Shown in pieces: positions 2,153 to 56,212 of a stretch of 57,578 nucleotides of DNA. Source of the DNA: a virus (lineage: Duplodnaviria > Caudoviricetes); IMG/VR virus record IMGVR_UViG_3300046049_000065, positions 1-57,578 of that record. The stretch is one strand, 5' to 3'. Below the pieces are notes generated by a model. The model saw only the letters and a program-made list of their open reading frames with translations. It was not told the origin of the DNA and made no database searches. Position 1 is the stretch's first letter, and each line of letters opens with the position of its first letter. The position numbers and the translations under genes were made by a program.

Positions 2153-2332
2153 ATGACCGGTGACAAGGAGCACTACGTCCAGTTCCGCTGCTCCGAGAAG
2201 CTAAAGCGGCGTCTCGGGGCGGGAGCCGGGCTGCGAAACTGCTCCAACAGCGAGTACATCCGCCAATTAATTCAGGAGGACACCGAGGACCTCCCAGAAC
2301 ATCTGCTTAAAACAGACCTTTCCGAAGCATGA
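2153..2332 (+). CDS. RHH-family regulator, divergent partner (59 aa, below ORF-track cutoff)
   Basis: MTGDKEHYVQFRCSEKLKRRL...SNSEYIRQLIQEDT; AT-rich promoter-like sequence upstream. Confidence 0.75.
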   Translation: MTGDKEHYVQFRCSEKLKRRLGAGAGLRNCSNSEYIRQLIQEDTEDLPEHLLKTDLSEA

Positions 2333-2596
2333 CCTACATACTCACGCTCTACGCGAGTGACGATGACACGGTGGGCGACGTCGCCCGGCGCGCGGTAGCG
2401 CACACTGGCGAGTTGAACCCACACTGAGATATGAACTTCCGGGAGAGGCCTCAGCTCACCCAGAAAACCGCTGACCAACAAACGCACAACGCAAACGCAC
2501 AAACGCATGCACACATACCGCACACGACCACATTGTTATTTGCCCGATGCTGCGGCCACTGAGCCGCTAGACCCGGGTTACCGACGCGCGCAAGCG

Positions 2597-3385
2597 CTGC
2601 CGCCGGCAGGTGCGTTACTCGCGTTCGAGTCGCGAGCGGCGGTCTCCGGACGCCCGGGCGCAGCCCGGGTTGGCACACAAGCTGGCCCCGGCGCGGCCGG
2701 GCGTCCGTCCTGGTCCCGACTCCCCAGCCGTGTATCGCCCAAGCGACGGCGTCGCAAGACACCGTCGTGGCCCACGTTCCTATCGAAGATTTGGAGCGCT
2801 CGTGCCGCTCGCGATGCCGGTGTCCCCCTTCCCCACCCCGGCATCTGCGAGCGGCTGCCGGCATCGTTCGTTTCGTCCACTGACAGCTGGCCGTCGAGGC
2901 GGTCGGCACGCTGGCCCGGCTGGCTGGGGCCGTCCGAGTTCGACTCTCGGGGGGACCGCTTGGACGACCGCGAAACCCTCGCGGACCGTCCGGCCGCGTG
3001 GCGACCGCTATGGGGCGACCCTACCGAAAGGGGGACGTCACCTGCAGGCGGCGGGCCACCTACAAACGGGGTTCGACTCCCCGCGCGGTCTTTGGACCAT
3101 CGCGACGGCCGTCCCGTACGCTCCATACGGGGCCGCGGGCCGCCGTCGTCGGGGCCGCCCAGCCCCACTCCTGTATCGCTCGTCAACCATCCATCGCAGG
3201 CGCGGGAGTCGGTCCCGTTGCCGGACGCACCCGCCTCGCCAGCGTGGCAGCTCTCGAACAGGTCAGATCGGTTCCCACATTCGGGGGCGGCCGTCGCGGT
3301 GGTCCGGCCGACCCGGGCGGCACGCACCCCGGCGCTGTCATCGACAGCGGCCGCGCGTGCGGCGGTTCGACTCCGCCGGTCGGCA
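2597..3385 (+). ncRNA. putative structured RNA: array of four tRNA-like elements separated by long stems
   Basis: Four 5-bp T-stems with TTCGA(C/G)T loops at 2619-2635, 2934-2950, 3067-3083 and 3361-3377. Each is followed directly by a 7-nt strand that pairs to an upstream acceptor strand. No credible acidic ORF in the region. Confidence 0.7.
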
Positions 3386-3502
3386 CTCAGGCGTACAGCT
3401 CGCTTACTGCCCTGCAGCAGCGCGACCCGGGCCCCGAACCTACCAAAATCCAGACGCCCGGGTCGGGCTCGGACGACGGCCGCGCACGCGGACCGGGGTC
3501 AC

Positions 3503-3593
3503 CCGCGATAAACACGGAGACGCTGTCCGCTGAACCACGATGACCACAGATACGCCGTCCGCTGAACCATGATGAACGCAGACACGCCGTCCG
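3503..3593. repeat. ~2.7 copies of a 32-bp degenerate tandem repeat
   Basis: GTCCGCTGAACCAYGATGAMCRCAGAYACGCC; GTCC recurs at 3525, 3557 and 3589. Confidence 0.75.
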
Positions 3594-3886
3594 GTCGGGA
3601 CGAGGACCCGACCGGACAAAAGAGCACCGACGACGGCTCGCGGCCCACCGGTGGGCCCATCGAGCCAGGCGCATCGACTTCGACGCCAACTGCTGTTGCT
3701 CGCGAGGCGCGCACCAGCCTTCGCGAGCTGCGCGACCGGCTGGCCGCAATGGAGGGCGCGAACAGCACTCGGGCGTTGACCGAGACTGAGGAGGCGCTGG
3801 AGGCGACCGGCTGTGCAATCGCGTTTCTGACCGAGGTTTCGACAAAGACCGAGATCGAAATCGAAATCGAAGGAGGTGACGAGTGA
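3569..3886 (+). CDS. hypothetical protein
   Basis: Acidic ORF overlapping the next start, which has a GGAGGTGA SD. Confidence 0.55.
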   Translation: MMNADTPSGRDEDPTGQKSTDDGSRPTGGPIEPGASTSTPTAVAREARTSLRELRDRLAAMEGANSTRALTETEEALEATGCAIAFLTEVSTKTEIEIEIEGGDE

Positions 3887-4629
3887 TGCAGGCGGCGCTG
3901 CTGTACGCGCTCGAGGGGTCGCCGGACGGCGACCGCGTCGAGTCGAAGCTTGACAACCACTTCCCGGCGGTCGAGGCCCACGCAACGGCGTACCTTGACG
4001 GGCTCCAGTTGAGCCACGGTCGGGCCGCCGCCCTCATTAACGACGAGCGCACGCTTCCGATGCCGACGAGTTCCGGTATCGAAACCACGGAGATGGAGGT
4101 CAGCCGGAAGGCCCTGGTCGACTTCTACGCCGATCTTGAGGGCGGCTGGGCCGGCATCTCGTCGTCGGACGGCGAGTGGTTTGTTGAGGAGTGGCTGCGC
4201 ACGCAGCACAGCGTCAGCGCGCACGAGATGATGCTGGACCTGGAGGCGTGGATCGACGACTTCCTCGCGGAGTCCGCGCCCGAGGTGTGGGGTGTCAGCT
4301 ACTCCGTGACGGTGGGCGACGAGACCACCCGCGCCGGCGCGGACTTCCACCGCGACGCCGACCTTGACCAGCTGGAGCGGGACGCCGAATACATCTCGGG
4401 GGTCGGCTTCCGCTACGACTGGTCGGGTGATATCGTCCGCGGCGTCATCTACGAGTCCGGGTATGTGGCGCTCTACACCCGCTTTACCGAGGCGCAGTTC
4501 GGCCGCTGGCTTGCCGACCATGTCATCCCCTACAGCTATTCGGATGTCGAGGCAGCCGCCGAGACCCACCAGACCACGCTCGGTGAGACGGGCGGCGTCG
4601 AAGCGTCGGGAGGGCAGGCCGATGTCTGA
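3883..4629 (+). CDS. hypothetical viral protein
   Basis: 248-aa acidic ORF with SD. Confidence 0.8.
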   Translation: MMQAALLYALEGSPDGDRVESKLDNHFPAVEAHATAYLDGLQLSHGRAAALINDERTLPMPTSSGIETTEMEVSRKALVDFYADLEGGWAGISSSDGEWFVEEWLRTQHSVSAHEMMLDLEAWIDDFLAESAPEVWGVSYSVTVGDETTRAGADFHRDADLDQLERDAEYISGVGFRYDWSGDIVRGVIYESGYVALYTRFTEAQFGRWLADHVIPYSYSDVEAAAETHQTTLGETGGVEASGGQADV

Positions 4630-4932: not shown

Positions 4933-5302
4933 GCAGTCCGCGGGCGATACTGAACATGATGAGGAGTACTGGAAGAAATATCCGCATACGACTGTGCGGG
5001 GCGTCCCTGTTACAGAGTCGACCGCCGGCGTTGACGTCACACTGATCGATCTATCTCGAATCGACGAGCCACCGATGATCTTGCTGCAGGAATACTACCC
5101 GCCAGAGGACGACGTAGAAGGCGACACTGTCGGTGTGCATGGTCTGGGGGAAGCAGTTGAACTCGCATCGACCATCCTCGAGTTGCTGAGTCCGCAATTC
5201 GAGATGCCGGCCATGGACCGCGATGAACTTGAAGACGACGTCTGGACGCGGTATGTAGAGCCGGAGATCGACAGCCCAACGGAGGGCTCGGACGATGAGT
5301 GA
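4925..5302 (+). CDS. hypothetical protein
   Basis: Acidic, translationally coupled. Confidence 0.7.
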   Translation: MNEQSAGDTEHDEEYWKKYPHTTVRGVPVTESTAGVDVTLIDLSRIDEPPMILLQEYYPPEDDVEGDTVGVHGLGEAVELASTILELLSPQFEMPAMDRDELEDDVWTRYVEPEIDSPTEGSDDE

Positions 5303-6173
5303 CGGTCACTCCGCGGGCGAGACCGAGCACCCATCGCGCTGCAGCGACCCCATCACGGAACGTGGGGGGCTGGTCGGTCGCGGGGCTGTCCTCTACGACA
5401 CGCGCGACCCCCACGCCAGGCCGTGCTGTGCTCGGTCCGAGGGTCGGTGTCTCGCCCACGTCCTCGGTGTCTTTGAAGAGACGACCACCGGAGCGGTCTA
5501 CTATAAGGTTGCGGACGGGACATGGACCACCGAAGAGTGGGTCCACGCCGACGACCTGCTCGCCATCTTCGAGCCGGCCGGCTGGTCTGTAACTGGTGTT
5601 AAACCGACGTATCTGCTCACCCGCGAGCACGGCGTTGCGGACCATCACGACCTAATGACCGACGGCGGTACCGTCGAGGACGGAGGTGATCAACCCGACA
5701 GCGGGCTGTTTGCGGAGCACAAGGAGGAACTTCCCGAGGAATGGCACGACGCCTTTGACGCGCTCACTGCGCAGGGCAAGTCCCCGACCGGAATCAAGGC
5801 CACTATCGAGTACGTAATCACGCCGAAGACGCAGCAGGAAGTGTCTCAGGAGTTCAACGTCTCCGAAGTCACCATCCGGAACCTACAGGCCGCTGTCGTC
5901 GCTCTCGGCTCGGTTGAGGCAAAGCGGGGCTCAAGCCACGGAGCAGAACAAAAGACTGCAATGGACTACTGCAACCACATCGCCGACCGCCTCGGGTGGG
6001 ACGAAGATATTGAGTTTAGCGTCTCGGATGGCGTATACAATTCAACTCCTCAACCAGCGGTTCTGAAAGAAGGGTGGCGTTCACTCTATCGAGCCATTGC
6101 CTCCGGGTCCAAAGACAGTAAAACGCGCGATACGACGAGCACGAGGATCGACAGCAACGGAGGCGATTCGTGA
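5295..6173 (+). CDS. two-domain protein with C-terminal HTH
   Basis: TQQEVSQEFNVSEVTIRN HTH; LMTDGG linker. Confidence 0.7.
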   Translation: MSDGHSAGETEHPSRCSDPITERGGLVGRGAVLYDTRDPHARPCCARSEGRCLAHVLGVFEETTTGAVYYKVADGTWTTEEWVHADDLLAIFEPAGWSVTGVKPTYLLTREHGVADHHDLMTDGGTVEDGGDQPDSGLFAEHKEELPEEWHDAFDALTAQGKSPTGIKATIEYVITPKTQQEVSQEFNVSEVTIRNLQAAVVALGSVEAKRGSSHGAEQKTAMDYCNHIADRLGWDEDIEFSVSDGVYNSTPQPAVLKEGWRSLYRAIASGSKDSKTRDTTSTRIDSNGGDS

Positions 6174-6412
6174 TGTCTGAGGACGGGACTAAGCGTGAGA
6201 TAGTCACCAATCGCATCGGCACCGAAGCCCCGGCATCGGTTGACAGCGTTGACCTCGCAGCCGCCGACGAGTGTCCGGTCTGCGGTGGCACGACCGGCCT
6301 GCTGGAGTTGCCTGCGGGCTATTATCACTGCGAGAGTTGCTGGACTACGTGGGCCGGCGATCTGACAGACGCACGGCTCGTTGATTACTGCTATTCGGGA
6401 GGGGACGCATGA
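6170..6412 (+). CDS. zinc-finger protein
   Basis: CPVCG...CESC. Confidence 0.7.
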   Translation: MMSEDGTKREIVTNRIGTEAPASVDSVDLAAADECPVCGGTTGLLELPAGYYHCESCWTTWAGDLTDARLVDYCYSGGDA

Positions 6413-7083
6413 GGCGACTGACACGAGAGAAGTCGCTGACCGAGCGCGAGTTCGAGCGTCTGCTTATCGGTGCAGGGTCACTCAACGATCCGATCGATCA
6501 GCTCCAAGCCCGCGCCGCCATCCTCATCGGCGGACGGTTGGGGATGCGCCCTGGCGAGGTTGTCCACCTCTCATCGGACTGGGTCAACCGCCGCAGAGAG
6601 ATGATCCACATTCCCGGACACGACCCCTGCACGAAAGGCCGCGACGGCGGTCCCTGTGGGTACTGCAAGCAGGCGGTGAAGCAGCAACTCAAACACGACG
6701 AAAGCAAGGTGTTTGAGGATGTCCTTGAGGACTATTGGAACCCGAAAACTGACGCGGCAGTCCGTGACGTTCCGTACCGCTTCTCGCAGCGGGTCGGAGT
6801 CGCCATCGAGATGCTGCTCAAAGAGTTTGATGGCTTCCCGCACTCGTTTTCGACGCTTCAACGGCGGTTGAACGAGTCGCTCGATGCTGCGCCAGATCTC
6901 AACAGGGAATCAACGACGCTGCACGGACTCCGCGCGACTGCGGCATCATATCACGCTGGCCGCGGCCTTGATGCGGGGCCGCTCCAATCGATGTTTGGCT
7001 GGGAGGACTTGTCAACCGCACGCAATTACATCGCCGTCGACGGCGAGATGACTGCTCGAGCACTCGGGGAGGTGCATGGATAA
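6409..7083 (+). CDS. tyrosine recombinase/integrase (catalytic domain only)
   Basis: GMRPGE (R), PKT (K), HGLR (HxxR), FGW and ARNY (Y). Confidence 0.9.
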   Translation: MRRLTREKSLTEREFERLLIGAGSLNDPIDQLQARAAILIGGRLGMRPGEVVHLSSDWVNRRREMIHIPGHDPCTKGRDGGPCGYCKQAVKQQLKHDESKVFEDVLEDYWNPKTDAAVRDVPYRFSQRVGVAIEMLLKEFDGFPHSFSTLQRRLNESLDAAPDLNRESTTLHGLRATAASYHAGRGLDAGPLQSMFGWEDLSTARNYIAVDGEMTARALGEVHG

Positions 7084-45699: not shown

Positions 45700-46512
45700 C
45701 TATCGGCGGCAGAGTACTTCGTGGAGCCGCCCGGCGTTCTCGGGGCTGGGCGTGGCGTCGCGTCTCTCCCAGTGAGCAACGGCGCTCGGCGAGACGCCGA
45801 CCGCGTCTGCGAGGTCGGCCTGCGAGAGGCCCAGTTCTTCGCGGGCCGCTGCGAGGTCGCTCCCGAGCGGAACGGTTTCAGGGTCTCTCGGCTCGGCGGC
45901 GGGATCATCGTCGCTCTTTTCATCCTCATCTGCGTCGCGGTCGCCGCGGATGGCGAGTCGCTTCGCGCGGCCCCACGAGCCGAACCGCCGCTGATACGTG
46001 TTCGCGTTGGGGACTCCCTCGGCGTCGTCCATTTCAGTCACCGTCGGCGGCTTCAACTGCTTCGCTGTAAATTCCCGGATGTACTCAAGCAGTTCATCGC
46101 GCGAGTACTTCGGGACCTCATTGCGTGGCTTCGTTACGCTCAGTCCAGCAGCCCGCAACGCATTATTGAATGACCCGAAGCGATTAGAAAGTGTTTTGAT
46201 GCTGATGTCAGCTTGCTCCCGCACTTCGACGGCCCCAGGCGACCGACCAAATTCATCTGCAAGATCGCGCAGCTCACTCAGCAATTCCTCCTCGGTGTAG
46301 GCCTGCCCGTCATCCCTCCGTTTGGCCCGTTCTTCGACGGCCTCGGCCGAGAATCCCGCTTCCAGAAGTGCCTGCTCCCACGACTCAAACCGATACTGGT
46401 ATGTGCCTTTGTGCGGGGCATCCGGTTCGTCTCGAAGATCGGCTTGCATCGGCGGGCGACCCTCTTCGCCGAGGTCCCGCAGCCACTGTAGCAGTTCGTC
46501 TCTGGAATACAT
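45700..46512 (-). CDS. homing-endonuclease-associated repeat protein (3 repeats) + XRE HTH
   Basis: Y(S/T)..ELL...RFGS(W/F)..AL.AAG x3; GLSQADLADAVGVSPSAVAHWE. Confidence 0.85.
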   Translation of the reverse strand: MYSRDELLQWLRDLGEEGRPPMQADLRDEPDAPHKGTYQYRFESWEQALLEAGFSAEAVEERAKRRDDGQAYTEEELLSELRDLADEFGRSPGAVEVREQADISIKTLSNRFGSFNNALRAAGLSVTKPRNEVPKYSRDELLEYIREFTAKQLKPPTVTEMDDAEGVPNANTYQRRFGSWGRAKRLAIRGDRDADEDEKSDDDPAAEPRDPETVPLGSDLAAAREELGLSQADLADAVGVSPSAVAHWERRDATPSPENAGRLHEVLCRR

Positions 46513-46520
46513 CGGCTATG

Positions 46521-46772
46521 TCACTCGGGAAACGCGATATCTGCACAGTCCTCGCACCGAACCTCGCCGTTGACGAGCGTCCAAGCGGCGACCAGCTCGC
46601 CACAGCTCGCACAGACCGGCGTCCCTGACTGGCCGCCTTTCCGCTCGCGCTCCTCGAGCGCCTCGGCCGCCCGACGCAACAGGCCGTCCCATGTCTCGCC
46701 GTCGCGCTTCAACGCCCGGAGCTGGGCGCGCGTCGCCTCGTCGGCCTTGATGTTGACCCGGCTGTCGCTCAT
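46521..46772 (-). CDS. RHH-like + zinc-finger protein
   Basis: LKRDGETWDGLLRR; CASC...CEDC. Confidence 0.7.
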   Translation of the reverse strand: MSDSRVNIKADEATRAQLRALKRDGETWDGLLRRAAEALEERERKGGQSGTPVCASCGELVAAWTLVNGEVRCEDCADIAFPE

Positions 46773-46860
46773 GCGTCGGTCTCGAATCGGACTGCGACGG
46801 TCGTCCCTTTGATGTCCGGATACTGGCTCGCGAATGTCTGGATGATGTTCGACATCGTTG

Positions 46861-47211
46861 TCATCTCGGCCCGTTGTCAAGCGCCTCACTCACAAATCCC
46901 GCAAACAGCGCCATCCGCTGCCCTCCGTCAAAGAAGCCATCGGGGTTTGCCTCTGTTGACTTCTCTCGCAGCCACTGTACGGTATCCTCGGAGTGGGTCA
47001 TGGCCTCCACAGTCTCGCGGAGTTGGATTGTCATCCCCTCGTCGGCGAAGGAGACGTCGTATCGCTCCTTCTCCCAGTCGCGGTACTCGATCTCGTACTC
47101 TTCGCCGAAGCGATTGATAAGGTCTCCATAGGGCCCGACCTCTATGCGGCCAATGTCGGCGTCAACGTAGACGGTATCGTCTTCGATGTGTGTCTCGTAT
47201 CGTTTCGACAT
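46861..47211 (-). CDS. hypothetical protein
   Basis: Acidic ORF. Confidence 0.7.
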   Translation of the reverse strand: MSKRYETHIEDDTVYVDADIGRIEVGPYGDLINRFGEEYEIEYRDWEKERYDVSFADEGMTIQLRETVEAMTHSEDTVQWLREKSTEANPDGFFDGGQRMALFAGFVSEALDNGPR

Positions 47212-47215
47212 ATTA

Positions 47216-47779
47216 CTAGTCCTCAACACGCACGGAGACGGTCGTTCCTTCGACGTCCGGGTGCTGGCTCGTGAACGTCAGCTCCTCCGTCTTCTTCAGG
47301 GCATTTCGGACGCGATTCTCCCACATCTCGACCACGGTGTTCCACCACTCGTCCCAGCCGTCTTCTTCGTCGTCAGTAAGTGGTCGAACGGTGCCGTCGT
47401 CGTCCCACGCGTCGATCTCGTCGCGGAATCGGTGCTGTTCCGTGCCGTAGTCAGGATAGCACCACTCGTTGCGGAAGTCGGGGTGGTGACTGCCCGCCCA
47501 GTGCCCGACAATGAGCGCTTCGGGGCTGATGTGGAGCGGCGTCTGGCTCAGCTCCGGCGGGTAGTACGCGTGCGCCTCGGAGACGTGCGGCGTCGCCTTT
47601 TTCTCTTCCTCCAGCGGCGGCGTGACGCGGAGGTCGTGACTCCGCTGTTCGTCCTCGTCGCGCTTGTTCCGTCGCATCGCCTCGACGACGTCGTCGGGGT
47701 TGACCACGACAGTGTCGAGGTCGGCTGCGGGGTGATCAGTAGTCGTTTCGTCGACCGTGGCGTCAGTGCCTCGTGCCAT
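47216..47779 (-). CDS. hypothetical protein
   Basis: Acidic, leaderless promoter upstream. Confidence 0.75.
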   Translation of the reverse strand: MARGTDATVDETTTDHPAADLDTVVVNPDDVVEAMRRNKRDEDEQRSHDLRVTPPLEEEKKATPHVSEAHAYYPPELSQTPLHISPEALIVGHWAGSHHPDFRNEWCYPDYGTEQHRFRDEIDAWDDDGTVRPLTDDEEDGWDEWWNTVVEMWENRVRNALKKTEELTFTSQHPDVEGTTVSVRVED

Positions 47780-47830
47780 GTATCCCTATTGTACCCCTTA
47801 CCACATAAATCTTTGGTACAAGTGGGATAC
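47780..47830 (-). promoter_or_regulatory. BRE/TATA promoter flanked by a 16-bp inverted repeat
   Basis: GTATCCCTATTGTACC / GGTACAAGTGGGATAC (14/16) around minus-strand AAAGATTTATG. Confidence 0.7.
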
Positions 47831-47835
47831 AGAAG

Positions 47836-47917
47836 TCACTCTATGCCGCGGTTCCGCCACTCTGCGACCCCCATCAAAGCTGGCCTGAAAGAACTAGAGG
47901 ACGATAGAAACGGGTAG
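47836..47917. pseudogene. deletion scar: cysH 3' end fused to the 3' end of the divergent regulator gene
   Basis: 47836-47875 matches 51836-51875 (35/40); 47872-47913 matches 56371-56412; joined at a shared CATC. Confidence 0.8.
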
Positions 47918-48058
47918 GCAATGGCGTCAGAGGCGGTCAGACGTCTCGGCGGCGTCCAGCGCCCGCACGCGCACCTCGGTGACGACCTCGCGGCCGACGG
48001 TTCGCCAGCACTCGCCCGTCCAGGTCTCCTCAATGCGGTCGTAGCGGGTAGTTCATCA

Positions 48059-49507
48059 TTATTTTTTCGAAAGGACGTTGAGCGAGTCTCCCAACTGAGA
48101 CCGAAGTTCGTCGCCATAGAACGTCCGTGTGTGCGGTGTCTCGATGTCGGCGGGCGTCGTTTCAACTTCCCACGATGGCTCCAGCGCCACCGCAGCGGCC
48201 GATATATCGATGATATGGTACCCACCGACCGGCGACGAGTGGTCAAGCAGGATGTCGCCCACTGCTATCGGCTGGACCACCGCGCCGACATCGACTGCAA
48301 TCGCGTCGATTCGTGGGTCGTCAGCCGACCCGGGCGAGCGGTCGACCTCAACCGCCGTCGAACTACCTCTGGGGACGCCGCCGGGGCTCTGCCGGCGGGG
48401 CCGGAGCCCGGCGAGCTGGAGCGCGCGGTTGAAGCTCCCGAGCCGCCGCTCAATCGTCGTCGAGGGGATGTCACTCTCGGCCTCGAACGCGGCCACGGTC
48501 GGGACGGCCCGCAGCTCATCAGCAACGCGGCGGACCGCCTCGACGAGTTCCATATCGGTGTAGGTCTTGGCGTACGCCTCTCGGCCAGGGTTCGGGGTAT
48601 ACCCAGCGGCCGCGACCGCCGCATTCCAGCGCTCAAAGTGCCGGAGCACCGTGTGCAAGGATAGCTCCGCATGGTTGGTCCAGTCATCGACGGTCGGGGC
48701 CTGTCCGCCGTCTGGGATACCGACCGCGGCGGCGACCGCGTGAATCTCCTCGAGGACATCCTCGGCGGTAATGTGTTGTCGAGGGTCTAACCCCGCCTGG
48801 ACCAGCGCCGCGGCCCACGAGCCGAACCGCTCGCGGTAGATCCTATACGAGTGGGGCCCGTCAGCGTTCATCTGCCGCTTCGACGGTCTGGCGGTTACCC
48901 CGCTCTTCCGATAGTTCGCTAGATCCCGCAATTCGGTGATCAACTCTCGGTCCGTCGGGCTGTCTCGCGGCCGAGTCGGTGGATCGATGGCAACTTCTTC
49001 GAGCGCCCTGTTCCAGTCACCCCACCGTTCTCGGTACGTCGTTGCGCCGTATGCGCCCGCCTCGTCCATATCTAGTTCACTCGGCGCCCGGCCCAACTCG
49101 CGCGTCAGACGCGCCAGTTCGTCCAGTAGGTCGGCATCGGACCGTTTCGTCCCCGTGTTCGGCTCGAAGCCGGCGGCCTCAAGTGCCGCCGAGAACGACC
49201 CAAAGCGGTCCTGAAATGTCCACACGTGCGGCGTCTCGGCGGCGTCGTTGACCATCTCGACGGTCGGTGTCTCCCCGGTCTCCGCGGCGAGCTCGTGCAA
49301 CATCTCGACCAGCGCGTCCGCATCCAGTGTCGACGGGCGCAGACCCGCAGCCTCCAGTGCCCCGTCCCACGATCCGAACCGCCGTGTGTAGGTGGGATAA
49401 CTCGGGCTGTCCTCGTGCGCTTGCAGGTCGCTCACGGTCGGGCGCCCATCGACGGTGCCCGCGAGCTCCTGGAGCATTTCAATCAGCTCGTCTTCTGTGT
49501 ATGGCAT
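48059..49507 (-). CDS. homing-endonuclease-associated repeat protein (6 repeats)
   Basis: Six RFGSW..AL.AAG-type units; no HNH motif. Confidence 0.85.
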   Translation of the reverse strand: MPYTEDELIEMLQELAGTVDGRPTVSDLQAHEDSPSYPTYTRRFGSWDGALEAAGLRPSTLDADALVEMLHELAAETGETPTVEMVNDAAETPHVWTFQDRFGSFSAALEAAGFEPNTGTKRSDADLLDELARLTRELGRAPSELDMDEAGAYGATTYRERWGDWNRALEEVAIDPPTRPRDSPTDRELITELRDLANYRKSGVTARPSKRQMNADGPHSYRIYRERFGSWAAALVQAGLDPRQHITAEDVLEEIHAVAAAVGIPDGGQAPTVDDWTNHAELSLHTVLRHFERWNAAVAAAGYTPNPGREAYAKTYTDMELVEAVRRVADELRAVPTVAAFEAESDIPSTTIERRLGSFNRALQLAGLRPRRQSPGGVPRGSSTAVEVDRSPGSADDPRIDAIAVDVGAVVQPIAVGDILLDHSSPVGGYHIIDISAAAVALEPSWEVETTPADIETPHTRTFYGDELRSQLGDSLNVLSKK

Positions 49508-51835: not shown

Positions 51836-52648
51836 TCACTCGATGTCTCTATTCCGCCACTCTGCGACCCCCATCGCCGCGCCGCCGATCTCCTCGAACT
51901 GCGGATCAAAAAACGTCGTGAACCGCGCCCGCTCGTAGGCCCGCGGGCTGCCGTCGCCGGTCGTCGCTGCGAGTCGGTCGTAGTGGTCCGGATATGTGAG
52001 ATTCTGATCGACGATGTAGGCCCACACATCGCGCGCCGACCACTCGCGGATCGGGAACGCGGCGGGTTGGCCGAGGGATTCGCCGTACAGGCCGCTAAGT
52101 TTTCGGTCGCGCCCCCCGCTCTCGCCGGCTCGCAGGCCGACGAGCTGGCGGCTAACCATGCCTGTCTGGGCTAAGACCCCCGCCAACCGAGAGAGGCTTC
52201 CATCCGGGTCGGAGATACCATCGTCGGTGTTGAGACCGCGCTTGAATCGGTCTGCGCTGGAGAAGGGTCTGACTTCCGTGGCTCCCCGAGCTGCAACGAA
52301 CAGTCGGGTGTCGGGCACGAGGGCTCGAGCGGCCTCAACAACCGCCCGCTCTATCTCCCGGGGGATGAGCCGAGCGCCCCAGTCCCAGTGGAACGCTCGA
52401 TGGCGGCAGTCCGCGCGGTTCGCGAGCGCCAGCACGACTGTTGAGTCCTTCCCGCCCGAAAACGCCACGGCCGCATTCGGGTCGCGGTCGAACACCTGCT
52501 CGATCTCCGCGACGGCCTCGTCGGGGCGGTCGCCCAGCTCCTGGTCGGCGTGCGCCTGGAACGCCCGCCGCGTCCGGTCGGCCATTCCGTCACTCCCACG
52601 GTCGAAGTCGAACTCGGCACTGTCCTCTGGGTCCGGGAAATCTACCAC
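51836..52648 (-). CDS. cysH: CysH/PAPS-reductase-like PP-loop protein (type IV-B ancillary)
   Basis: AFSGGKDS, GLRAGES..R, PIREWSARDVWAYI; GTG start with GGAGGTGG SD. Confidence 0.9.
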   Translation of the reverse strand: MVDFPDPEDSAEFDFDRGSDGMADRTRRAFQAHADQELGDRPDEAVAEIEQVFDRDPNAAVAFSGGKDSTVVLALANRADCRHRAFHWDWGARLIPREIERAVVEAARALVPDTRLFVAARGATEVRPFSSADRFKRGLNTDDGISDPDGSLSRLAGVLAQTGMVSRQLVGLRAGESGGRDRKLSGLYGESLGQPAAFPIREWSARDVWAYIVDQNLTYPDHYDRLAATTGDGSPRAYERARFTTFFDPQFEEIGGAAMGVAEWRNRDIE

Positions 52649-53340
52649 GCCGGGTCCACCTCCGCCCCGGGCGGTGCGCACTCGGTCGCCCACTGTGTGT
52701 ACCAGTACGGCGTCCGATAGGTGAGCGTCTGCTGGTCATCCCACTCGTCGAGGACCTCCGTCGGGAGCGGTCGCATCGCAACGCCCTTGCTGGGATGCAC
52801 GAGTGAGTGGTCGGCATTCAGCTCGCGCAGGCCCCAGTCGTCGACGCGGCCGAATCCCTTGGCGGTATGCTTCCCAAGGTCGGCCAGATGGGTTTCGAGA
52901 AGGTGCTCAATCCGCTCGCGGTCGCCGCGGAGGTAGAACGTACACCGGCGGGCAGGCCGGTAGACGACGTCGATCATCTGTGACTTGAACGCGCCGCCGC
53001 CAATAGGGATCTTTGATCGGGGACGAGCGCCGCCGACCGTATGTGCCCGGACTTCGTCGTACGAGGAGTACAGCGTCGTCTCGACGGTCCGGTCGGTGTC
53101 GAACTGTGAGACGGAGGCGTGGGCGATGCCGTCGGTGTACGCCAGCCCGGCGTCGACGGCGTCCACATCTCGGAGGTCGGCCGGCCCGTCCTCTTCGAGG
53201 TTGGCGACCCAGCGGTCGTATTCGCGGCCGGCGTGGTCGATGAGGGCGAGCCGCTGGAGCACCCCGTCGCCATTGATCCACGGATGGCCGAGCGCGACGC
53301 CGCTGCCGAGTTCGAGCGTCAGCTGGAGGTTCGCGGTCAT
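52642..53340 (-). CDS. csf3: Csf3 (Cas5-group RAMP)
   Basis: DGVL, GDRERIEHLL, LGKHTAKGFGRV..W, MRPLP, YRTPYW. Confidence 0.85.
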   Translation of the reverse strand: MTANLQLTLELGSGVALGHPWINGDGVLQRLALIDHAGREYDRWVANLEEDGPADLRDVDAVDAGLAYTDGIAHASVSQFDTDRTVETTLYSSYDEVRAHTVGGARPRSKIPIGGGAFKSQMIDVVYRPARRCTFYLRGDRERIEHLLETHLADLGKHTAKGFGRVDDWGLRELNADHSLVHPSKGVAMRPLPTEVLDEWDDQQTLTYRTPYWYTQWATECAPPGAEVDPAW

Positions 53341-54122
53341 GCGCACACCTCGTGCGCTTCGGCGTCGGCGCGGATCTGGAGCATCCCGAACCCGTAGGAG
53401 CGCTTTGCCCCGACACCGCGTGCGAGGAGTTCGTTCAGTGCCGCGCGGTGGGCGTCGTCTCGAACCTCGTAGCGCAGGTCCCACTTGCTGGCGATGAGCG
53501 TGATTGTCTCCGCCGGCGTGACGTCGACGCGGACGCCGTAGGTTTTCCGATGCCCGTACTCGTCGAACAGCCGCAGCGACGGACGCTCGAGTCCAGCCTC
53601 GTGTTCGAGCACATGACCGGCAGTGCGGTGGAGCGCCGTTTTGAACGCTTCCGGCGAGTGCTCGCGGTGGCTCCAGTACGTCGGCGTCGCGCCGTGGTCG
53701 TTCTCGCTTGGCTGCTCGACAGTGACGACAACCCCCGATGTCGTCGTGAGGACGCCCGCAGACCCGGGGTCGCCGACACCCGTTTCAAGCGGTTTCGCGG
53801 CGCGGGTCTCGAACACCATCGACCCGGCAGTGAGTTCGGGCTCGCGTTGAAGCCCGTCCGCGATAGCCTCCATGACATCCAACCGCGGCGCGGCGATAAG
53901 CAGATGCACGCCGTCGCCTGCATCAAGGGTCGCGCCGGGAGCGTGGTCGTCTCGGATGGGTATCAGATCGGAGAACGTGAACGGCGGCCGTTGACTCTCT
54001 CGGTGGTCGTCAATGCCCGCACGCTGGAGCGTCTGGCCGAGCCGTCCTCTGATGTTGCGGTGGTACTGTCGCTCCCACGCACAGTCGTGGGTCGCCTGGA
54101 GCCGGAGTAACAGCTGGTACAT
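53337..54122 (-). CDS. cas6: Cas6 endoribonuclease (haloarchaeal type I-like)
   Basis: LLLRLQA...YHRNIRGRL, PFTFS and C-terminal GVGAKRSYGFG (GhGxxxxxGhG). Confidence 0.88.
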   Translation of the reverse strand: MYQLLLRLQATHDCAWERQYHRNIRGRLGQTLQRAGIDDHRESQRPPFTFSDLIPIRDDHAPGATLDAGDGVHLLIAAPRLDVMEAIADGLQREPELTAGSMVFETRAAKPLETGVGDPGSAGVLTTTSGVVVTVEQPSENDHGATPTYWSHREHSPEAFKTALHRTAGHVLEHEAGLERPSLRLFDEYGHRKTYGVRVDVTPAETITLIASKWDLRYEVRDDAHRAALNELLARGVGAKRSYGFGMLQIRADAEAHEVCA

Positions 54123-54128
54123 GAGTGG

Positions 54129-55031
54129 CTACCTGTCGGCGATGGTGTCGAGCGCCTCGATGATCTCGCCGCCCTGTTCGTCGACGTACTCTGTGTAGCG
54201 GTCGGCTTCCGAAAGGTCAAGCTCGTAGCTGATGTCGACCCGACCGAGGCCGGCCGCGGACATTGCGCCGATGGTCCCCTCCTCCTGCCAGAGCCGGAGA
54301 CCATGAAGGAGACAGGATCGTGCGAGATCCGTCGTGCGGGACTCGAATTTGACGCTGTGTTCGAACTGCGCGCCGGGGATCAGCACGTCAAAGTGGTAGA
54401 TCATCTGGTGGCTGTCGACATCGTCGGATTCGGTGTTGTCTTCTGCATCGGAATCAAACCCAAAGTCGACATCCATCCCAGTGTCGTCGGGCTCGTCGTG
54501 CATTCGCGTCTGGTGCATCTCGCTGACGAACTCGCGCCACGAGATGTCGGACTGGGTTTCGTTTCGGTAGTTGTTTTCCTCGCAGATCAACGCCAAATGG
54601 TGGATATTGACCGTCCCCTCAAACATCTGGTTGCCTGTTGAGCCGCCGAGTAGGTCGATAAGTGGGAACGTGTTGCGGATCGTTCGACGCAGCCCAACAT
54701 CAATCTCCGCCTTGCCGTCTTTTTCGAGGACGCCGCCCGCCCGCAGCAGGTGGTAGAGCCGCTCGTCGGTGATCGTGTAGTCAAGTCGTTGGACGAGGTC
54801 CTCTGCTAGGAGTCGTCGGAGGTGGCCGCGGATTGAGTTTCCTGAGACGAATGGCACGTCCTCGAATGTGTTCCCGTCAAGCACCCGGATTTTTTCTTTG
54901 CGGAGAAGTTGTTTGTTACCTGTCTGTGCGTCCGCTCCCGTATGGATCTGCGAAATGGCGGTCGCCCCGCCGACGACAGCTTCGGTCGCGCCGAGTTCGG
55001 TACCTTTAAGATATGCCTCTGTAGTGCTCAT
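54129..55031 (-). CDS. csf2: Csf2 (Cas7-group backbone)
   Basis: VPFVSGNSIRGHLRR, R..FPLIDLLGG, QMIY..DVLIPG, IGAMSAAGLG. Confidence 0.9.
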   Translation of the reverse strand: MSTTEAYLKGTELGATEAVVGGATAISQIHTGADAQTGNKQLLRKEKIRVLDGNTFEDVPFVSGNSIRGHLRRLLAEDLVQRLDYTITDERLYHLLRAGGVLEKDGKAEIDVGLRRTIRNTFPLIDLLGGSTGNQMFEGTVNIHHLALICEENNYRNETQSDISWREFVSEMHQTRMHDEPDDTGMDVDFGFDSDAEDNTESDDVDSHQMIYHFDVLIPGAQFEHSVKFESRTTDLARSCLLHGLRLWQEEGTIGAMSAAGLGRVDISYELDLSEADRYTEYVDEQGGEIIEALDTIADR

Positions 55032-55032
55032 G

Positions 55033-55452
55033 TTAGTCCTCCGTGATGAAGTCGCTGAGTTCGCTGGTCGTCGGATTCGATTCGGCGTCGGTGTCGCTGT
55101 TCTGTTTCGCCTCGAAGTAGTTCTGAACCGTCTCTCGTGTCTTAGCCGTAAGCCAGATATCCTCTTTGCGGAGGATTTCCATCGCCAGGTCGCTGTCCGC
55201 GACGAGCGGGTCCAAGTGTTCGGTCGGCAGGTCCGGCGACGCCATGTTCAGTCCATGGGCGAGTTTCTTGAACGCGCCGTGGACGCTGCCCGCGTTCGAT
55301 GCCGCTTCCAGGCGTTCCTCGAAGGTTGCGCTTCGGCGCTTTTTGTCGGGGAACTCTCCCCAGTCGGTCTCTCGCCAGAACTCGGAGAGAATGACAATCC
55401 AGTCCTGTGCGAGCTTATTCTCGTGGTCGGTGAGGTCGCTTGCAAGTACCAT
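55033..55452 (-). CDS. cas11: Cas11-like small subunit
   Basis: 139-aa helical protein between csf1 and csf2. Confidence 0.6.
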   Translation of the reverse strand: MVLASDLTDHENKLAQDWIVILSEFWRETDWGEFPDKKRRSATFEERLEAASNAGSVHGAFKKLAHGLNMASPDLPTEHLDPLVADSDLAMEILRKEDIWLTAKTRETVQNYFEAKQNSDTDAESNPTTSELSDFITED

Positions 55453-56135
55453 TATTGGATGAGTTGCACCGCAATCCGCCAGTCCTCACGGCCGGTGAGG
55501 TCGGTGTTGATACGGTCTACCTCGTCGCGCTCGAAGTCGTACCGGGCGAGGTCGGCGGCCCGGACCGGGCCCTTCAGCGCGCGTTTCGAGGGCTCGTTCT
55601 CGCGGCCGCGGAGCCGTTGGCCGAACGCGACCATGTCGGCGAACCGCTCGCGGTTGATGGTGACCAGGCGCTTGTCCACGAGCAGCTGGTAGTCCTCGCG
55701 GGACGTATTGAGCGTCTGTGCGAAAATCCAGCCATTCAGGACGGTGAGAAAGTCGGATTCGTCCTTGTACTTTGCCATCCATGGGCCCTCCGGCGGGTCC
55801 AGCAGGACATCGAGGAGTTCGGGCCGTTCCTTGATGATCTGGACGCCGTCTTCGGGTGTGGCGATCCAGTGGTAGCGCCGGTAGTCCATCTGGCCGGCGA
55901 CGTGCTCACACCGGTAGCAGATGCCGTCGCCGTCGCTGAGCGCTCGGTCGCTCGTGAACGCATCGGAGAAGACGCCATTGGTTCGTCGGACGGGCTTGAT
56001 CGGGCCGCCGAGGCCGCAGATCATGCACTTGCCCGTCTCGTCCGGGTCGTCTGGCGGTTCTACGTCGTCCGTTTCGGCGACGATGGCTGAGAGCCGTCGC
56101 GCGTTCTCGGACGCCTCTGTCTGTAACTCTGGCAT
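55452..56135 (-). CDS. csf1: Csf1 (Cas8-like large subunit with Zn finger)
   Basis: CMICG...FSDAFT...GDGICYRC; first gene of the operon. Confidence 0.75.
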   Translation of the reverse strand: MPELQTEASENARRLSAIVAETDDVEPPDDPDETGKCMICGLGGPIKPVRRTNGVFSDAFTSDRALSDGDGICYRCEHVAGQMDYRRYHWIATPEDGVQIIKERPELLDVLLDPPEGPWMAKYKDESDFLTVLNGWIFAQTLNTSREDYQLLVDKRLVTINRERFADMVAFGQRLRGRENEPSKRALKGPVRAADLARYDFERDEVDRINTDLTGREDWRIAVQLIQ

Positions 56136-56177
56136 GCCGCGGTGGTAAATCGTGTCTCTGTGGCTATTAGCCTTTCG

Positions 56178-56212
56178 GACAGGTGGACACAACACTCATT
56201 TGTCTACCTGTC
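56178..56212. promoter_or_regulatory. operator-like inverted repeat between the cas operon and the divergent regulator
   Basis: GACAGGTGGACA-N11-TGTCTACCTGTC (11/12), directly upstream of minus-strand GAAAGGCTAATAG. Confidence 0.65.

What the first reader, a model, noticed from the sequence alone, without database searches (positions are those of the whole stretch)
2597..3385. Array of four tRNA-like elements alternating with GGAC...GTCC-closed stems
Seen: T-arms TCGCG-TTCGAGT-CGCGA, CCGAG-TTCGACT-CTCGG, CGGGG-TTCGACT-CCCCG and GGCGG-TTCGACT-CCGCC. Each stacks on an acceptor-like helix: 2597-2603/2636-2642, 2712-2717/2952-2957, 2992-2998/3084-3090 and 3307-3313/3378-3384. Stem sequences differ but pairing is kept, while the D/anticodon parts are non-canonical and 15-215 nt long. 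Between them lie stems that all start GGAC and end GTCC: 2648-2706 (10 bp), 2962-2991 and 3094-3305 (18 bp). Known: RNase P and tRNase Z recognise acceptor + T-arm, and Haloferax uses such a t-element to process 5S rRNA. Inference: a polycistronic viral ncRNA cut by host tRNA enzymes into about seven small RNAs (tRNA decoys, Y-RNA-like RNAs, or guides).
Basis: partly seen in the sequence, partly recalled or inferred. Interest (0 to 1): 0.88.

Follow-up and report, generated by a model that had tools for sequence, protein, structure and literature searches.

The report
tRNA-like RNA array in a halovirus
A salt-loving archaeal virus carries a one-kilobase non-coding stretch in which four tRNA-like mini-structures alternate with hairpins, most likely a long RNA that the host's tRNA-trimming enzymes cut into pieces, though the cutting itself has not been shown.

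Summary
The window is a haloarchaeal tailed-virus contig. Bases about 2400-3560 are non-coding. All four perfect T-arms (5 bp stem, TTCRANN loop) of the array lie on the + strand at 2619-3377; simulation expects 0.011. Each T-arm stacks on an acceptor-like helix, and these modules alternate end to end with stems closed by GGAC...GUCC. None is a canonical tRNA: Rfam finds nothing at gathering score, and only E4 is called by ARAGORN. One relative (G002) keeps E1, S3 and E4. E1 there shows 4 compensatory double changes and no broken pair in 13. I add a fifth hairpin (3419-3469) with a conserved loop and a fully changed stem. The closing helices hold 6 G-U and 0 A-C pairs, which favours a + strand RNA. 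RNA-library contigs cover 3137-3379 and 3441-3592, but one bridges a predicted cleavage site. Processing is therefore inferred, not shown. The main rival is a tRNA-like attP site, since an integrase gene lies 3 kb away. However, a 22-base string from E4's 3' end has no exact match in 185,579 species genomes. Similar unannotated tRNA-like elements occur in intergenic regions of cultured haloviruses. Verdict: a real, new variant of known t-element/TMER-like punctuation.

The parts
2599..2643 (+). E1, a tRNA-like minihelix. Acceptor 2599-2605/2637-2643 (7 bp, one G-U), 12-nt connector, 6 bp T-stem 2618-2623/2631-2636, loop TTCGAGT.
   Evidence: Sequence; T-arm scan. Compared with G002: 4 double and 1 single compensatory changes and 0 broken pairs in 13. 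Homology with G002, and with a variant contig in run X4, starts at 2599.
2647..2707 (+). S1, a hairpin closed by CGGAC...GUCCG (15-position closing helix with one mismatch, plus inner helices).
   Evidence: Inverted repeat I7. Fold -53.2 kcal/mol, z = -5.4, 0 of 200 shuffles as good. No relative fetched, so covariation is untested.
2711..2958 (+). E2. Acceptor-like helix 2711-2717/2952-2958 stacked on a 6 bp T-arm 2933-2951 (loop TTCGACT), enclosing a 215-nt insert with further hairpins (for example 2803-2851).
   Evidence: The closing helix is not significant alone (alternative 7-mers exist). Variant DNA contigs of run X4 start at 2703 and 2710, next to the module boundary.
2962..2991 (+). 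S2, a 30-nt hairpin GGACG-A-CCGCGA...UCGCGG-AC-CGUCC. Its ends resemble a shortened S3 closing stem.
   Evidence: Fold z = -4.0, 0 of 200 shuffles as good; helices counted. One X4 contig lacks the 4-nt linker 2958-2961 before it.
2992..3090 (+). E3. Acceptor 2992-2998/3084-3090 (7 bp, one G-U) stacked on T-arm 3067-3083, with a 68-nt insert.
   Evidence: Its 3' part gives the best Rfam sub-threshold match: mascRNA-menRNA, 23.8 bits against a gathering score of 42.5. Three X4 contigs end at 3088, and two run on there into a different sequence.
3094..3305 (+). S3, a 212-nt domain closed by a 22 bp stem (3094-3115/3284-3305, two G-U). The 5' half (3094-3200) is conserved and the 3' half (3201-3283) is very divergent in G002.
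   Evidence: Inverted repeat I1. In G002 the closing stem is kept as 14 bp, a 2x2 internal loop and 5 bp, with one-sided changes that keep pairing. The interior fold is not conserved. An RNA-library contig covers 3137-3379.
3307..3385 (+). E4, the most tRNA-like module. Acceptor 3307-3313/3378-3384, a long central hairpin carrying a 7-nt 'anticodon' loop, T-arm 3361-3377, discriminator A3385.
   Evidence: ARAGORN calls tRNA-Asp(atc) here and tRNA-Leu(caa) in G002. In Rfam the best match is tRNA-Sec at 18.2 bits against 47. Stems are kept in G002. Its last 26 nt are identical in HSTV-2-like viruses.
3419..3469 (+). It has an 11-14 bp stem and a conserved loop of about 23 nt (CCCCGAACCUACCAAAAUCCAGAC).
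   Evidence: Both the window and G002 fold as a hairpin. The stems have unrelated sequences while the loop is nearly identical. An RNA-library contig covers 3441-3592.
3503..3598 (+). Three tandem 32-nt repeats that run into the start of ORF 3569-3886. G002 has one copy. Whether they belong to the ncRNA locus is uncertain.
   Evidence: Covered by RNA-library contig 3441-3592.

Best explanation
Bases about 2599-3470 of the + strand encode a long, highly structured non-coding RNA of a haloarchaeal tailed virus. It is transcribed in the same direction as the genes on both sides. In the relative G002 it begins 13 nt after the stop codon of an upstream gene, so there it is probably part of a polycistronic transcript.

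The RNA is a chain of helix-closed domains joined by 0-5 nt linkers. Four are tRNA-like: a 6-7 bp acceptor helix stacked on a 5-6 bp T-arm, with the D and anticodon arms replaced by inserts of 12 to about 215 nt. These alternate with three hairpins closed by GGAC...GUCC, followed by a fifth hairpin with a conserved loop.

Acceptor plus T-arm is what RNase P and tRNase Z recognise. Haloferax cuts such t-elements in vivo. The host enzymes are therefore expected to cut at the 5' end of each tRNA-like module (near 2599, 2711, 2992 and 3307) and after its discriminator (near 2644, 2959, 3091 and 3385). This tRNA punctuation would release the hairpin RNAs and define the ends of the flanking mRNAs.

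Shown: the anatomy, its non-randomness, the lack of coding, partial covariation, the strand, and its presence in RNA libraries.

Inferred: transcription as one unit, cleavage, and any function of the released pieces.
For: 1. Four same-strand perfect T-arms lie within 760 nt, where 0.011 are expected. Each abuts an acceptor-like helix whose 5' strand begins 0-5 nt after the previous hairpin ends.
2. The region is non-coding, with frame-breaking indels against G002.
3. For E1 in G000 versus G002: 4 double and 1 single compensatory changes, 0 of 13 pairs broken. The S3 closing stem and the E4 stems change only in ways that keep pairing. The H5 stem is entirely different while its loop is conserved.
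4. The 13 closing helices hold 101 Watson-Crick pairs, 6 G-U, 0 A-C and 2 other mismatches. They therefore pair better as + strand RNA than on the other strand or as DNA. The T-loop motif is also strand-specific.
5. RNA-library contigs of halite metatranscriptome runs X5 and X7 cover 3137-3379/3313 and 3441-3592.
6. In the DNA run X4, variant contigs begin, end or switch sequence at module boundaries (2599, 2703/2710, 3088). G002 lacks exactly S1 through E3. The modules therefore behave as exchangeable units.
7. Precedent in the host group: Haloferax t-elements are substrates of RNase P and tRNase Z, and they release a flanked small RNA in vivo (PMC4326828, passages; PMC7714728, passages).
8. 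Comparable unannotated tRNA-like elements sit in same-strand intergenic positions of other haloviruses. HSTV-2-like viruses have them at about 45.5, 56.1 and 61.2 kb, beside a true tRNA-Gln. ChaoS9 has one between two head genes, called 'tRNA-???' by ARAGORN. Others are in G004 and G006. In G001 and G006 the element is followed by a hairpin and then a gene.
Against: - No RNA end has been mapped.
- The X5 contig 3137-3379 spans the predicted RNase P site at 3306/3307 with more than 31 nt on each side. So unprocessed RNA, or DNA carried over into the library, exists. The tool warns that presence in an RNA library does not prove transcription. The X5 and X7 contigs at 3441-3592 have the same length and depth, so they may be one data set filed twice.
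- The contig ends (3137, 3379, 3441, 3592) do not coincide with predicted cleavage sites.
- Only one relative carries part of the array. E2, E3, S1 and S2 have no comparative support.
- The S3 interior fold is not conserved (20 broken against 7 kept).
- Acceptor helices of 7 bp are individually expected by chance in this G+C-rich sequence.
- The pairing in the T-arm alignment (30 of 30 cells) is partly by construction, because my scan selected perfectly paired stems.
- 7 of 8 viral loci and 3 of 3 metagenome loci that encode relatives of the neighbouring gene have no T-arm. The array is therefore young or dispensable.
- An integrase gene lies 3 kb downstream.
Confidence: 0.5

Rival explanations
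1. DNA-level reading: the tRNA-like pieces are attP sites, or relics of integration into and excision from host tRNA genes. This is the accepted explanation for low-scoring 'tRNA-like genes' next to integrases in HF1/HF2-type haloviruses. The RNA structure would then be inherited from the tRNAs and have no function of its own.
For: - A tyrosine integrase gene lies at 6409-7083, 3 kb from E4 (PF00589 36.4 bits; phrog_216 69.7 bits).
- E4 is a low-quality tRNA call, like the HF2 attP (PMC8707807, section 3.6 read; PMC7230728, passage).
- The last 26 nt of E4 (T-arm, 3' acceptor strand and discriminator) are identical in the unrelated HSTV-2 group, which also has an integrase about 5 kb away. That is what two viruses aiming at one host tRNA would show, and the identity stops exactly at the tRNA-like 3' end.
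- Replacing one tRNA target by another would also mimic covariation.
Against: - A 22-base string from within E4's 3'-terminal 26 nt has no exact match in one genome of each of 185,579 species. The host of HSTV-2 is a cultured Halorubrum species.
- HF2-type attP shares 57 nt with the host tRNA, whereas here tRNA likeness is limited to T-arm plus acceptor.
- Both acceptor strands are present and pair around non-tRNA inserts of 12 to about 215 nt, which an att core does not need.
- There are four different modules but one integrase.
- G002 has E1, S3 and E4 but no PF00589 match in its 52.9 kb (76% complete).
- 6 G-U and 0 A-C pairs point to RNA-level selection.
- The hairpins between the modules, and H5 with its conserved loop and changed stem, are not explained.
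Confidence: 0.15
2. The modules work as intact structured RNA elements rather than as cutting sites. They could be tRNA mimics that soak up or divert a host factor (a tRNA-targeting defence nuclease, the CCA-adding enzyme or a modification enzyme). Or they could be a long structured leader that stabilises or regulates the downstream operon starting at 3569.
For: - The anatomy, strand and covariation evidence are the same as for the best explanation.
- An RNA-library contig runs unbroken across the S3/E4 junction.
- E4 keeps an anticodon-like 7-nt loop whose three middle bases are all different in G002 (AUC against CAA) while the stem is kept.
- The array lies directly upstream of a long run of + strand genes.
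- The conserved single-stranded loop of H5 looks like a binding site.
Against: - Acceptor/T-arm mimics are cut in Haloferax (PMC4326828, passages), so escaping RNase P and tRNase Z would need a special feature that I do not see.
- No partner or target was found. The conserved unpaired segments have no complement longer than 11 nt in the window.
- The array is absent from most relatives.
Confidence: 0.18
3. Decayed viral tRNA genes: remnants of a tRNA gene cluster that lost D and anticodon arms and gained insertions. They would now be neutral and without function.
For: - Haloviruses carry tRNA genes. HSTV-2-like viruses have a true tRNA-Gln with the same TTCGACT T-loop 0.8 kb from a mini-element.
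- E4 keeps canonical spacing up to the anticodon arm and is called tRNA by ARAGORN.
- An acceptor of the same sequence type occurs in a phage tRNA-Leu(CAG).
- The array is absent from most relatives, and G002 has lost S1 through E3.
Against: - Neutral decay would not keep both acceptor strands paired around inserts of up to about 215 nt.
- It would not give 4 compensatory double changes and no broken pair in E1.
- It would not place strong hairpins with shared GGAC/GUCC ends between all the modules.
- It would not conserve the HSTV-2 element at 97% across five viruses from four countries.
Confidence: 0.12

Closest known systems
Haloferax volcanii t-elements: the tRNA-like structure upstream of 5S rRNA cut by tRNase Z, also used to flank engineered crRNAs (icrRNA)
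   Same: Same host group (Halobacteria). Both are an acceptor/T-arm mimic that is not a tRNA, placed directly next to another RNA whose end it is expected to create. The engineered form 't-element, small RNA, t-element' has the same layout as E-S-E here (PMC4326828, passages read; PMC7714728, passages read).
   Different: The elements here are viral and number four in a row. Their inserts reach about 215 nt and they share no sequence with the host element (which I could not obtain). Cleavage is untested. The primary papers (Holzle 2008, 2012) were not held, so I could not check the defining structure of the t-element.
Murine gammaherpesvirus 68 TMERs (viral tRNA-like element joined to pre-miRNA hairpins and separated by tRNase Z)
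   Same: A virus-encoded, non-aminoacylatable tRNA-like element is followed directly by stem-loops, in several copies clustered at one end of the genome. Host tRNA 3' processing is thought to release the hairpins (search listing and abstracts only: PMC4337559, PMC4838037).
   Different: TMERs belong to a eukaryotic virus, with a pol III promoter inside each unit, Dicer-dependent miRNAs, and separate genes rather than one chain. This is an analogy of mechanism only. There is no homology.
MALAT1/MEN-beta mascRNA (Rfam RF01684)
   Same: An acceptor plus T-arm minihelix at the end of a long ncRNA, cut by RNase P and tRNase Z. It is the best Rfam match to E3.
   Different: The match scores 23.8 bits against a gathering score of 42.5, E = 0.046 on 1.4 kb. 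mascRNA is a vertebrate family. E3 is not a member.
Halovirus tRNA-like attP sequences (HF1/HF2 group)
   Same: A low-scoring tRNA-like sequence in a halovirus, within a few kb of a tyrosine integrase (PMC8707807, section 3.6; PMC7230728, passage).
   Different: Those are single, share 57 nt exactly with host tRNA genes, and are truncated at the 5' end. Here there are four, each with both acceptor strands and foreign inserts, separated by hairpins, and a 22-base string from E4's 3' end has no exact genome match.
Mitochondrial tRNA punctuation of polycistronic transcripts (recalled, no call)
   Same: tRNA-shaped units between other RNAs serve as the cutting signals for RNase P and RNase Z.
   Different: There the units are real, functional tRNAs. 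Here they are mimics.

Membership tests
Canonical tRNA (Rfam clan CL00001 / ARAGORN) | Score at or above the covariance-model gathering threshold | tested here: not met
   No Rfam family reaches its gathering score in the whole window. With E <= 10 only E4 matches a tRNA model: tRNA-Sec, 18.2 bits against 47. E1-E3 have no tRNA match.
Canonical tRNA (Rfam clan CL00001 / ARAGORN) | Cloverleaf with D-arm and an anticodon arm carrying U33, and an anticodon kept among close relatives | tested here: not met
   ARAGORN of 4 modules (E4). Its loop reads UCAUCGA, with C at position 33. Position 8 is C, and the 3 bp D-stem is not kept in G002. The anticodon is AUC here and CAA in G002. E1-E3 have no D or anticodon arm.
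Haloarchaeal t-element (tRNA-like processing signal) | Acceptor helix coaxial with a T-arm; not a functional tRNA | tested here: met
   4 of 4 modules have a 6-7 bp acceptor next to a 5-6 bp T-stem with a TTCGAST loop.
Haloarchaeal t-element (tRNA-like processing signal) | Cleavage by RNase P at the 5' end and by tRNase Z after the discriminator | not testable with these tools
   Only assembled contigs of RNA libraries were available. They show no ends, and one bridges 3306/3307.
Halovirus tRNA-like attP | Site-specific integrase gene nearby | tested here: met
   PF00589 at 6433-7041, 36.4 bits; phrog_216. However, none was found in G002, which has E1, S3 and E4 (record 76% complete).
Halovirus tRNA-like attP | Exact identity of the 3' part with a host tRNA gene | tested here: not met
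   A 22-base string from E4's T-arm and 3' acceptor has 0 exact matches in genome contigs (185,579 species). No positive control could be run and no search with mismatches was possible. E1-E3 were not searched.
Halovirus tRNA-like attP | Proviral copies flanked by attL/attR derived from the element | not tested
   No provirus with the array was found.
mascRNA-menRNA (RF01684) | Gathering score 42.5 bits | tested here: not met
   23.8 bits at 3047-3090.
CRISPR array | Regularly spaced direct repeats of 24-40 nt with unique spacers | tested here: not met
   Tandem Repeats Finder and an 11-mer spacing scan find no such array in the window. The only non-coding tandem repeat is 32 nt x 2.8 without spacers at 3506-3593. 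The T-arms are 133-315 nt apart.

The most novel reading that the evidence does not exclude
The array is a natural, Cas6-independent guide-RNA cassette. Host RNase P and tRNase Z would cut stem-closed RNAs out of it, each with a conserved scaffold and a hypervariable segment (such as 3201-3283 in S3). These RNAs would then load the virus's own type IV Csf complex, which is encoded at 52.6-56.2 kb of the same contig with no CRISPR array in the window. That would be the wild counterpart of the engineered Haloferax 't-element, crRNA, t-element' construct, and an answer to what RNA array-less type IV-B-like systems use.
Probability: 0.04. Interest if true: 0.9.

Novelty: new variant of a known kind. 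Interest (0 to 1): 0.6.

Why it matters
tRNA-like processing signals are known in Haloferax as single elements, and they are used there as a laboratory tool. Tandem units of a tRNA-like element plus hairpins are known from one mouse herpesvirus. A chain of four such mimics interleaved with hairpins in an archaeal virus would be the first natural archaeal-virus case I could find of hijacking host tRNA maturation to make several small RNAs. My literature searches listed no such report; the library is partial and supplements were closed.

It would also change annotation practice. In haloviruses, 'tRNA-like' is usually read as attP. The related elements seen here in HSTV-2-like viruses and ChaoS9 are either unannotated or covered by inconsistent small 'hypothetical protein' calls.

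The claim can be tested directly with available Haloferax and Halorubrum tools.

Tried and rejected
- Conserved ORF across the region: rejected. G+C is flat over codon positions, no Pfam family matches, and there are frame-breaking indels. Long ORFs also exist in G002, but this is expected at 69% G+C. A direct protein comparison failed on stop codons and was dropped.
- tRNA genes with archaeal introns: ARAGORN with intron search found nothing more at the default threshold. At 80% of the threshold it found only scattered calls on both strands. I saw no bulge-helix-bulge motif when reading S1-S3; this was not searched formally.
- Recent internal duplication: a self-BLAST gives only short matches with E >= 0.0004, mostly the hairpin arms. 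A 13-of-14 complementarity between 2599-2612 and 3039-3052 is not significant (E = 0.72).
- C/D-box reading of the 32-nt repeats: the spacing is wrong and the boxes are absent in G002 (read).
- Antisense targets of the conserved unpaired segments within the virus: none longer than 11 nt.
- Fold energy as a guide to strand: both strands fold far better than shuffles (z = -5.7 and -4.7), so this does not discriminate.
- S3 interior structure: not conserved.
- More relatives: four DNA patterns from S3 (two), E1 and H5 found only G002. A degenerate E4 pattern found 6 stretches: G001, G002, one phage tRNA-Leu, one new minihelix (G006) and two copies of one chance match. BLAST of the region against phage records found no match. 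E4 against phages and plasmids gave only chance G+C-rich hits apart from the HSTV-2 group.
- Link to the type IV genes: Csf2 was not found in G001-G005, including G002, which has part of the array.
- Parts of the stretch without RNA contigs (2200-3136 and 3593-4000 in X5/X7) are not evidence of silence.
- The five Mincapvirus copies are 97% identical, so they give no covariation.
- Model R1 on five cultured haloviruses gave one credible hit (ChaoS9, 23.2 bits). The other 7 hits, at 16.2-17.5 bits, are at noise level.
Relatives or a class of genomes cannot be drawn for a virus record. PMC2327364 is not held.
Full report
WHAT THE WINDOW IS

The window is a whole IMG/VR virus record (G000): 57,578 bases, linear, estimated 82% complete. 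It encodes a RepH-type replication protein, an exonuclease, a large terminase, a portal, a head protease and a tape-measure protein.

All 10 phage-collection records that match its RepH belong to viruses of Halobacterium, Natrialba or Natrinema, at 28-31% identity. The closest cultured portal is that of Halorubrum phage Hardycor1, at 31.6%. It is therefore a new haloarchaeal tailed virus. DNA runs labelled halite metagenome hold the region.

THE OBSERVATION

The four T-arms, the four acceptor-like helices and the three GGAC...GUCC stems can all be read in the sequence.

- A scan of both strands of the window for a perfectly paired 5 bp stem around TTCRANN finds five sites. Four lie at 2619, 2934, 3067 and 3361, all on the + strand.
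- In 5000 Markov simulations of the region the mean was 0.011 per strand, and none had two or more.
- The nine-base core GTTCGASTC occurs five times in the window, a number reached by 14 of 100 shuffles. But four of the five lie in the array, and those four are the ones with paired flanks.
- The 7 bp acceptor helices are not significant one by one, since 1-3 alternative perfect partners exist within 320 nt for each.
- What is striking is the tiling. From 2599 to 3385 the sequence is a chain of seven helix-closed domains with linkers of 0-5 nt.
- S1 and S2 fold far better than shuffles (z = -5.4 and -4.0). The S3 closing stem is 22 bp.

- The E1 register is better placed at 2599-2605/2637-2643, with a 6 bp T-stem.
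- The S1 closing helix has 15 positions, not 10.
- The S3 closing stem has 22 bp, not 18.
- ARAGORN does call E4 a tRNA.

THE REGION IS NON-CODING

- G+C is flat across the three codon positions from about 2400 to 3750. The flanking genes show the usual third-position excess.
- The five long ORFs across the region have no Pfam family.
- The alignment with the one relative has indels of 6, 1, 1 and 1 bases.
- The next real gene starts at 3569 and is conserved in the relative.

NOT CANONICAL tRNAs

- Rfam gives no match at gathering score in the window.
- Below threshold, the best matches are mascRNA-menRNA on the 3' part of E3 (23.8 bits against 42.5) and tRNA-Sec on E4 (18.2 against 47).
- E4 has canonical spacing up to a 5 bp anticodon-like stem. 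But it has C at positions 8 and 33 and no stable D-stem.
- Its 'anticodon' is AUC here and CAA in the relative.
- All four modules share one plan: acceptor helix, then an insert of 12 nt (E1), about 215 nt (E2), 68 nt (E3) or a 47-nt hairpin region (E4), then a T-arm.

COMPARATIVE EVIDENCE

The neighbouring gene 3883-4629 has relatives in 8 viral-contig loci and 3 metagenome loci. Only one of these, G002 (85% protein identity), has T-arms. The other 7 viral loci (25-37% identity) and all 3 metagenome loci have none in the DNA held.

G002 carries E1, S3, E4 and the downstream hairpin, but not S1 through E3.

- E1: the 13 pairs show 4 double and 1 single compensatory change and none broken.
- S3 closing stem: kept as 14 bp, an internal loop and 5 bp, with U-G/U-A and C-G/U-G changes.
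- E4: the stems are kept.

Against this, the interior fold of S3 predicted from the window alone is not kept: 20 changed pairs are broken and 7 kept. The 3' half of S3 (3201-3283) is essentially unrelated in G002, while the 5' half is over 90% identical.

The T-arm alignment of six copies is 100% paired, with double changes at 4 of 5 pairs. But my scan had selected these copies for perfect pairing, so only their number and clustering count as evidence.

STRAND AND LEVEL

- The 13 closing helices contain 101 Watson-Crick pairs, 6 G-U, no A-C and 2 other mismatches.
- On the opposite strand, or in duplex DNA, the six G-U pairs would be mismatches. The structure is therefore best as + strand RNA, the strand of the T-loop motif and of all neighbouring genes.
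- Fold energy alone does not discriminate between the strands.

RNA EVIDENCE

Two RNA-library runs labelled halite metagenome hold contigs at 3137-3379 (X5) or 3137-3313 (X7), and at 3441-3592 (both).

- The contigs at 3441-3592 are identical in length and depth in the two runs, so this may be one data set filed twice.
- The tool warns that DNA can be present in such libraries.
- The X5 contig crosses the predicted RNase P site at 3306/3307.
- None of the contig ends falls on a predicted site.

This is a hint of expression. It is not support for processing, and it is mild evidence against complete cleavage at that junction.

The DNA run X4 holds many variants. Their contigs start, stop or switch to other sequence at 2599, 2703/2710 and 3088. 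One lacks the 4-nt linker before S2. Together with the exact absence of S1 through E3 in G002, this indicates that the modules are exchanged as units.

THE attP RIVAL

Halovirus literature reads low-scoring tRNA-like sequences near integrases as attP (PMC8707807, section 3.6, read; PMC7230728, passage). Here a tyrosine integrase gene lies at 6409-7083.

The last 26 nt of E4 are identical in G001. G001 has the same length as GenBank HSTV-2 and carries the element at the same coordinates. The 26 nt are also identical in HRTV-2, HRTV-11 and HRTV-7, and match 25 of 26 in HCTV-6. G001 also has an integrase, about 5 kb away. Shared targeting of one host tRNA would explain this identity.

Against attP:
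- A 22-base string from within those 26 nt has no exact match in one genome of each of 185,579 species.
- Both acceptor strands are present around foreign inserts.
- There are four different modules but one integrase.
- G002 has no integrase match.
- The intervening hairpins and H5 are left unexplained.

I could not search host genomes with mismatches, so this rival remains at about 0.15.

A WIDER PATTERN

A covariance model of the T-arm and its 3' flank (R1) finds further elements in intergenic regions on the gene strand.

- G001/HSTV-2: beside the shared element and a true tRNA-Gln, there are two more. One at about 56.1 kb scores 23.9 bits and has a perfect 7 bp acceptor, a 6 bp T-stem and the E1-type loop TTCGAGT. 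One at about 61.2 kb scores 17.5 bits and has only a 4 bp acceptor.
- G004: one with an imperfect T-stem.
- G006, a complete 100.6 kb virus: a degenerate E4 pattern found a minihelix with the same acceptor sequence as E4 but a different, fully paired T-stem. It is followed by a 10 bp hairpin and then a gene.
- Five cultured haloviruses: only ChaoS9 gave a credible hit (23.2 bits). It is a 72-nt element between the head-assembly and prohead-protease genes, called 'tRNA-???' by ARAGORN and not annotated in the record.
- In the Mincapvirus records the shared element is covered by inconsistent small hypothetical ORFs or by nothing.

tRNA-like elements inside halovirus transcription units may therefore be more common than annotation suggests. 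The four-fold array in G000 is the extreme case among the records I examined.

MECHANISM

Established knowledge: RNase P and tRNase Z recognise the acceptor/T-arm stack. In Haloferax, t-elements are cut in vivo and release a flanked small RNA (PMC4326828, passages).

Inference: a + strand transcript of this region will be cut at the four mimics. This would give E1 (about 46 nt), S1 (about 66), E2 (about 248), S2 (about 33), E3 (about 100), S3 (about 215) and E4 (about 79), plus a downstream RNA that begins near 3386 and carries H5, the 32-nt repeats and the operon starting at 3569.

What the pieces do is unknown. I found no targets in the virus and no family match. I put 0.5 on this reading, 0.18 on intact-structure roles (decoy or leader), 0.15 on attP or recombination relics and 0.12 on neutral tRNA decay.

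COMPARISON AND NOVELTY

In mechanism the locus resembles Haloferax t-elements, the MHV68 TMER units (abstracts only) and mascRNA. It is not a sequence member of any Rfam family. My searches of the held literature for tRNA-like elements in haloarchaeal viruses returned only the attP interpretation and engineered uses; the library is partial. I rate it a new variant of a known kind, with interest 0.6.

SEEN IN PASSING

The minus strand at 51.8-57.6 kb encodes a full type IV CRISPR effector set: Csf1, Cas11, Csf2 and Csf3, plus a Cas6b-type nuclease, a PAPS-reductase-like gene and a TnpB. No CRISPR array is present in the window.

A link to the RNA array is the boldest reading that the evidence allows. 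But G002 has part of the array and no Csf2, so I give it 0.04.

Noticed in passing
window 51836-56195, minus strand: A virus-borne type IV CRISPR-Cas effector module. By PADLOC: Csf1 55452-56195 (139.5 bits), Cas11 55033-55452 (91.1), Csf2 54129-55031 (244.1), a Cas6b-type endoribonuclease 53337-54122 (175.8) and Csf3 52642-53484 (160.4). It is followed by a PAPS-reductase/CysH-like gene at 51836-52693 (Pfam PF01507, 40.4 bits). That association is recalled as typical of array-less type IV-B systems. No CRISPR array was found in the window. A Cas6 of the host's type I-B kind beside an array-less Csf set suggests the virus might use host crRNAs. Csf2 was not found in G001-G005.
   Followed up: partly
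window 56414-57559, minus strand: A TnpB/Cas12f-like gene (Pfam Cas12f1-like TNB domain 81 bits; PADLOC Cas12f 159 bits) at the end of the contig, next to the type IV genes. Its guide RNA region was not examined.
   Followed up: no
window 3503-3598: Three tandem 32-nt repeats directly upstream of, and running into, the start codon of ORF 3569-3886. G002 has a single copy. They are covered by RNA-library contig 3441-3592. They could be operator or iteron sites, or part of the leader RNA.
   Followed up: partly
window 45700-49507, minus strand: Three neighbouring genes made largely of 'homing endonuclease associated repeat' units (PF18780). They have 3, 6 and 2 matched stretches, and one is fused to an HTH_3 domain.
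   Followed up: no
L020 (G001:44013-47042) and L025 (G001:54614-57644), minus strand; equivalent to HSTV-2 at about 45.5, 56.1 and 61.2 kb: HSTV-2-like Mincapviruses carry unannotated tRNA-like minihelices in intergenic regions. Each lies near hairpins and a shared AT-rich 'gaaagaatt...aattctttg' motif. The one at about 45.5 kb is 97% conserved across five viruses and is overlaid by inconsistent small ORF calls in three of the five records.
   Followed up: partly
L050 193-264 (ChaoS9, MK310226.1 about 5292-5363): A 72-nt tRNA-like element ('tRNA-???' by ARAGORN; R1 23.2 bits) lies between the head-assembly and prohead-protease genes of Halobacterium phage ChaoS9. It is not annotated in the record.
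   Followed up: partly
L029 4940-5040, minus strand (G006, about 85.0 kb): A complete 100.6 kb virus with 46% G+C has a minihelix with the same acceptor sequence as E4 (GCCGAC...GUCGGCA) but a different, fully paired T-stem. It is nested in an outer 7 bp helix and followed by a perfect 10 bp hairpin and a gene start. The host is unknown.
   Followed up: partly
window 2688-2748: In DNA run X4 the summed contig depth peaks at 131 over the S1/E2 junction, against 16-82 in the neighbouring bins. This suggests that the piece is shared by several genomes in the community.
   Followed up: no
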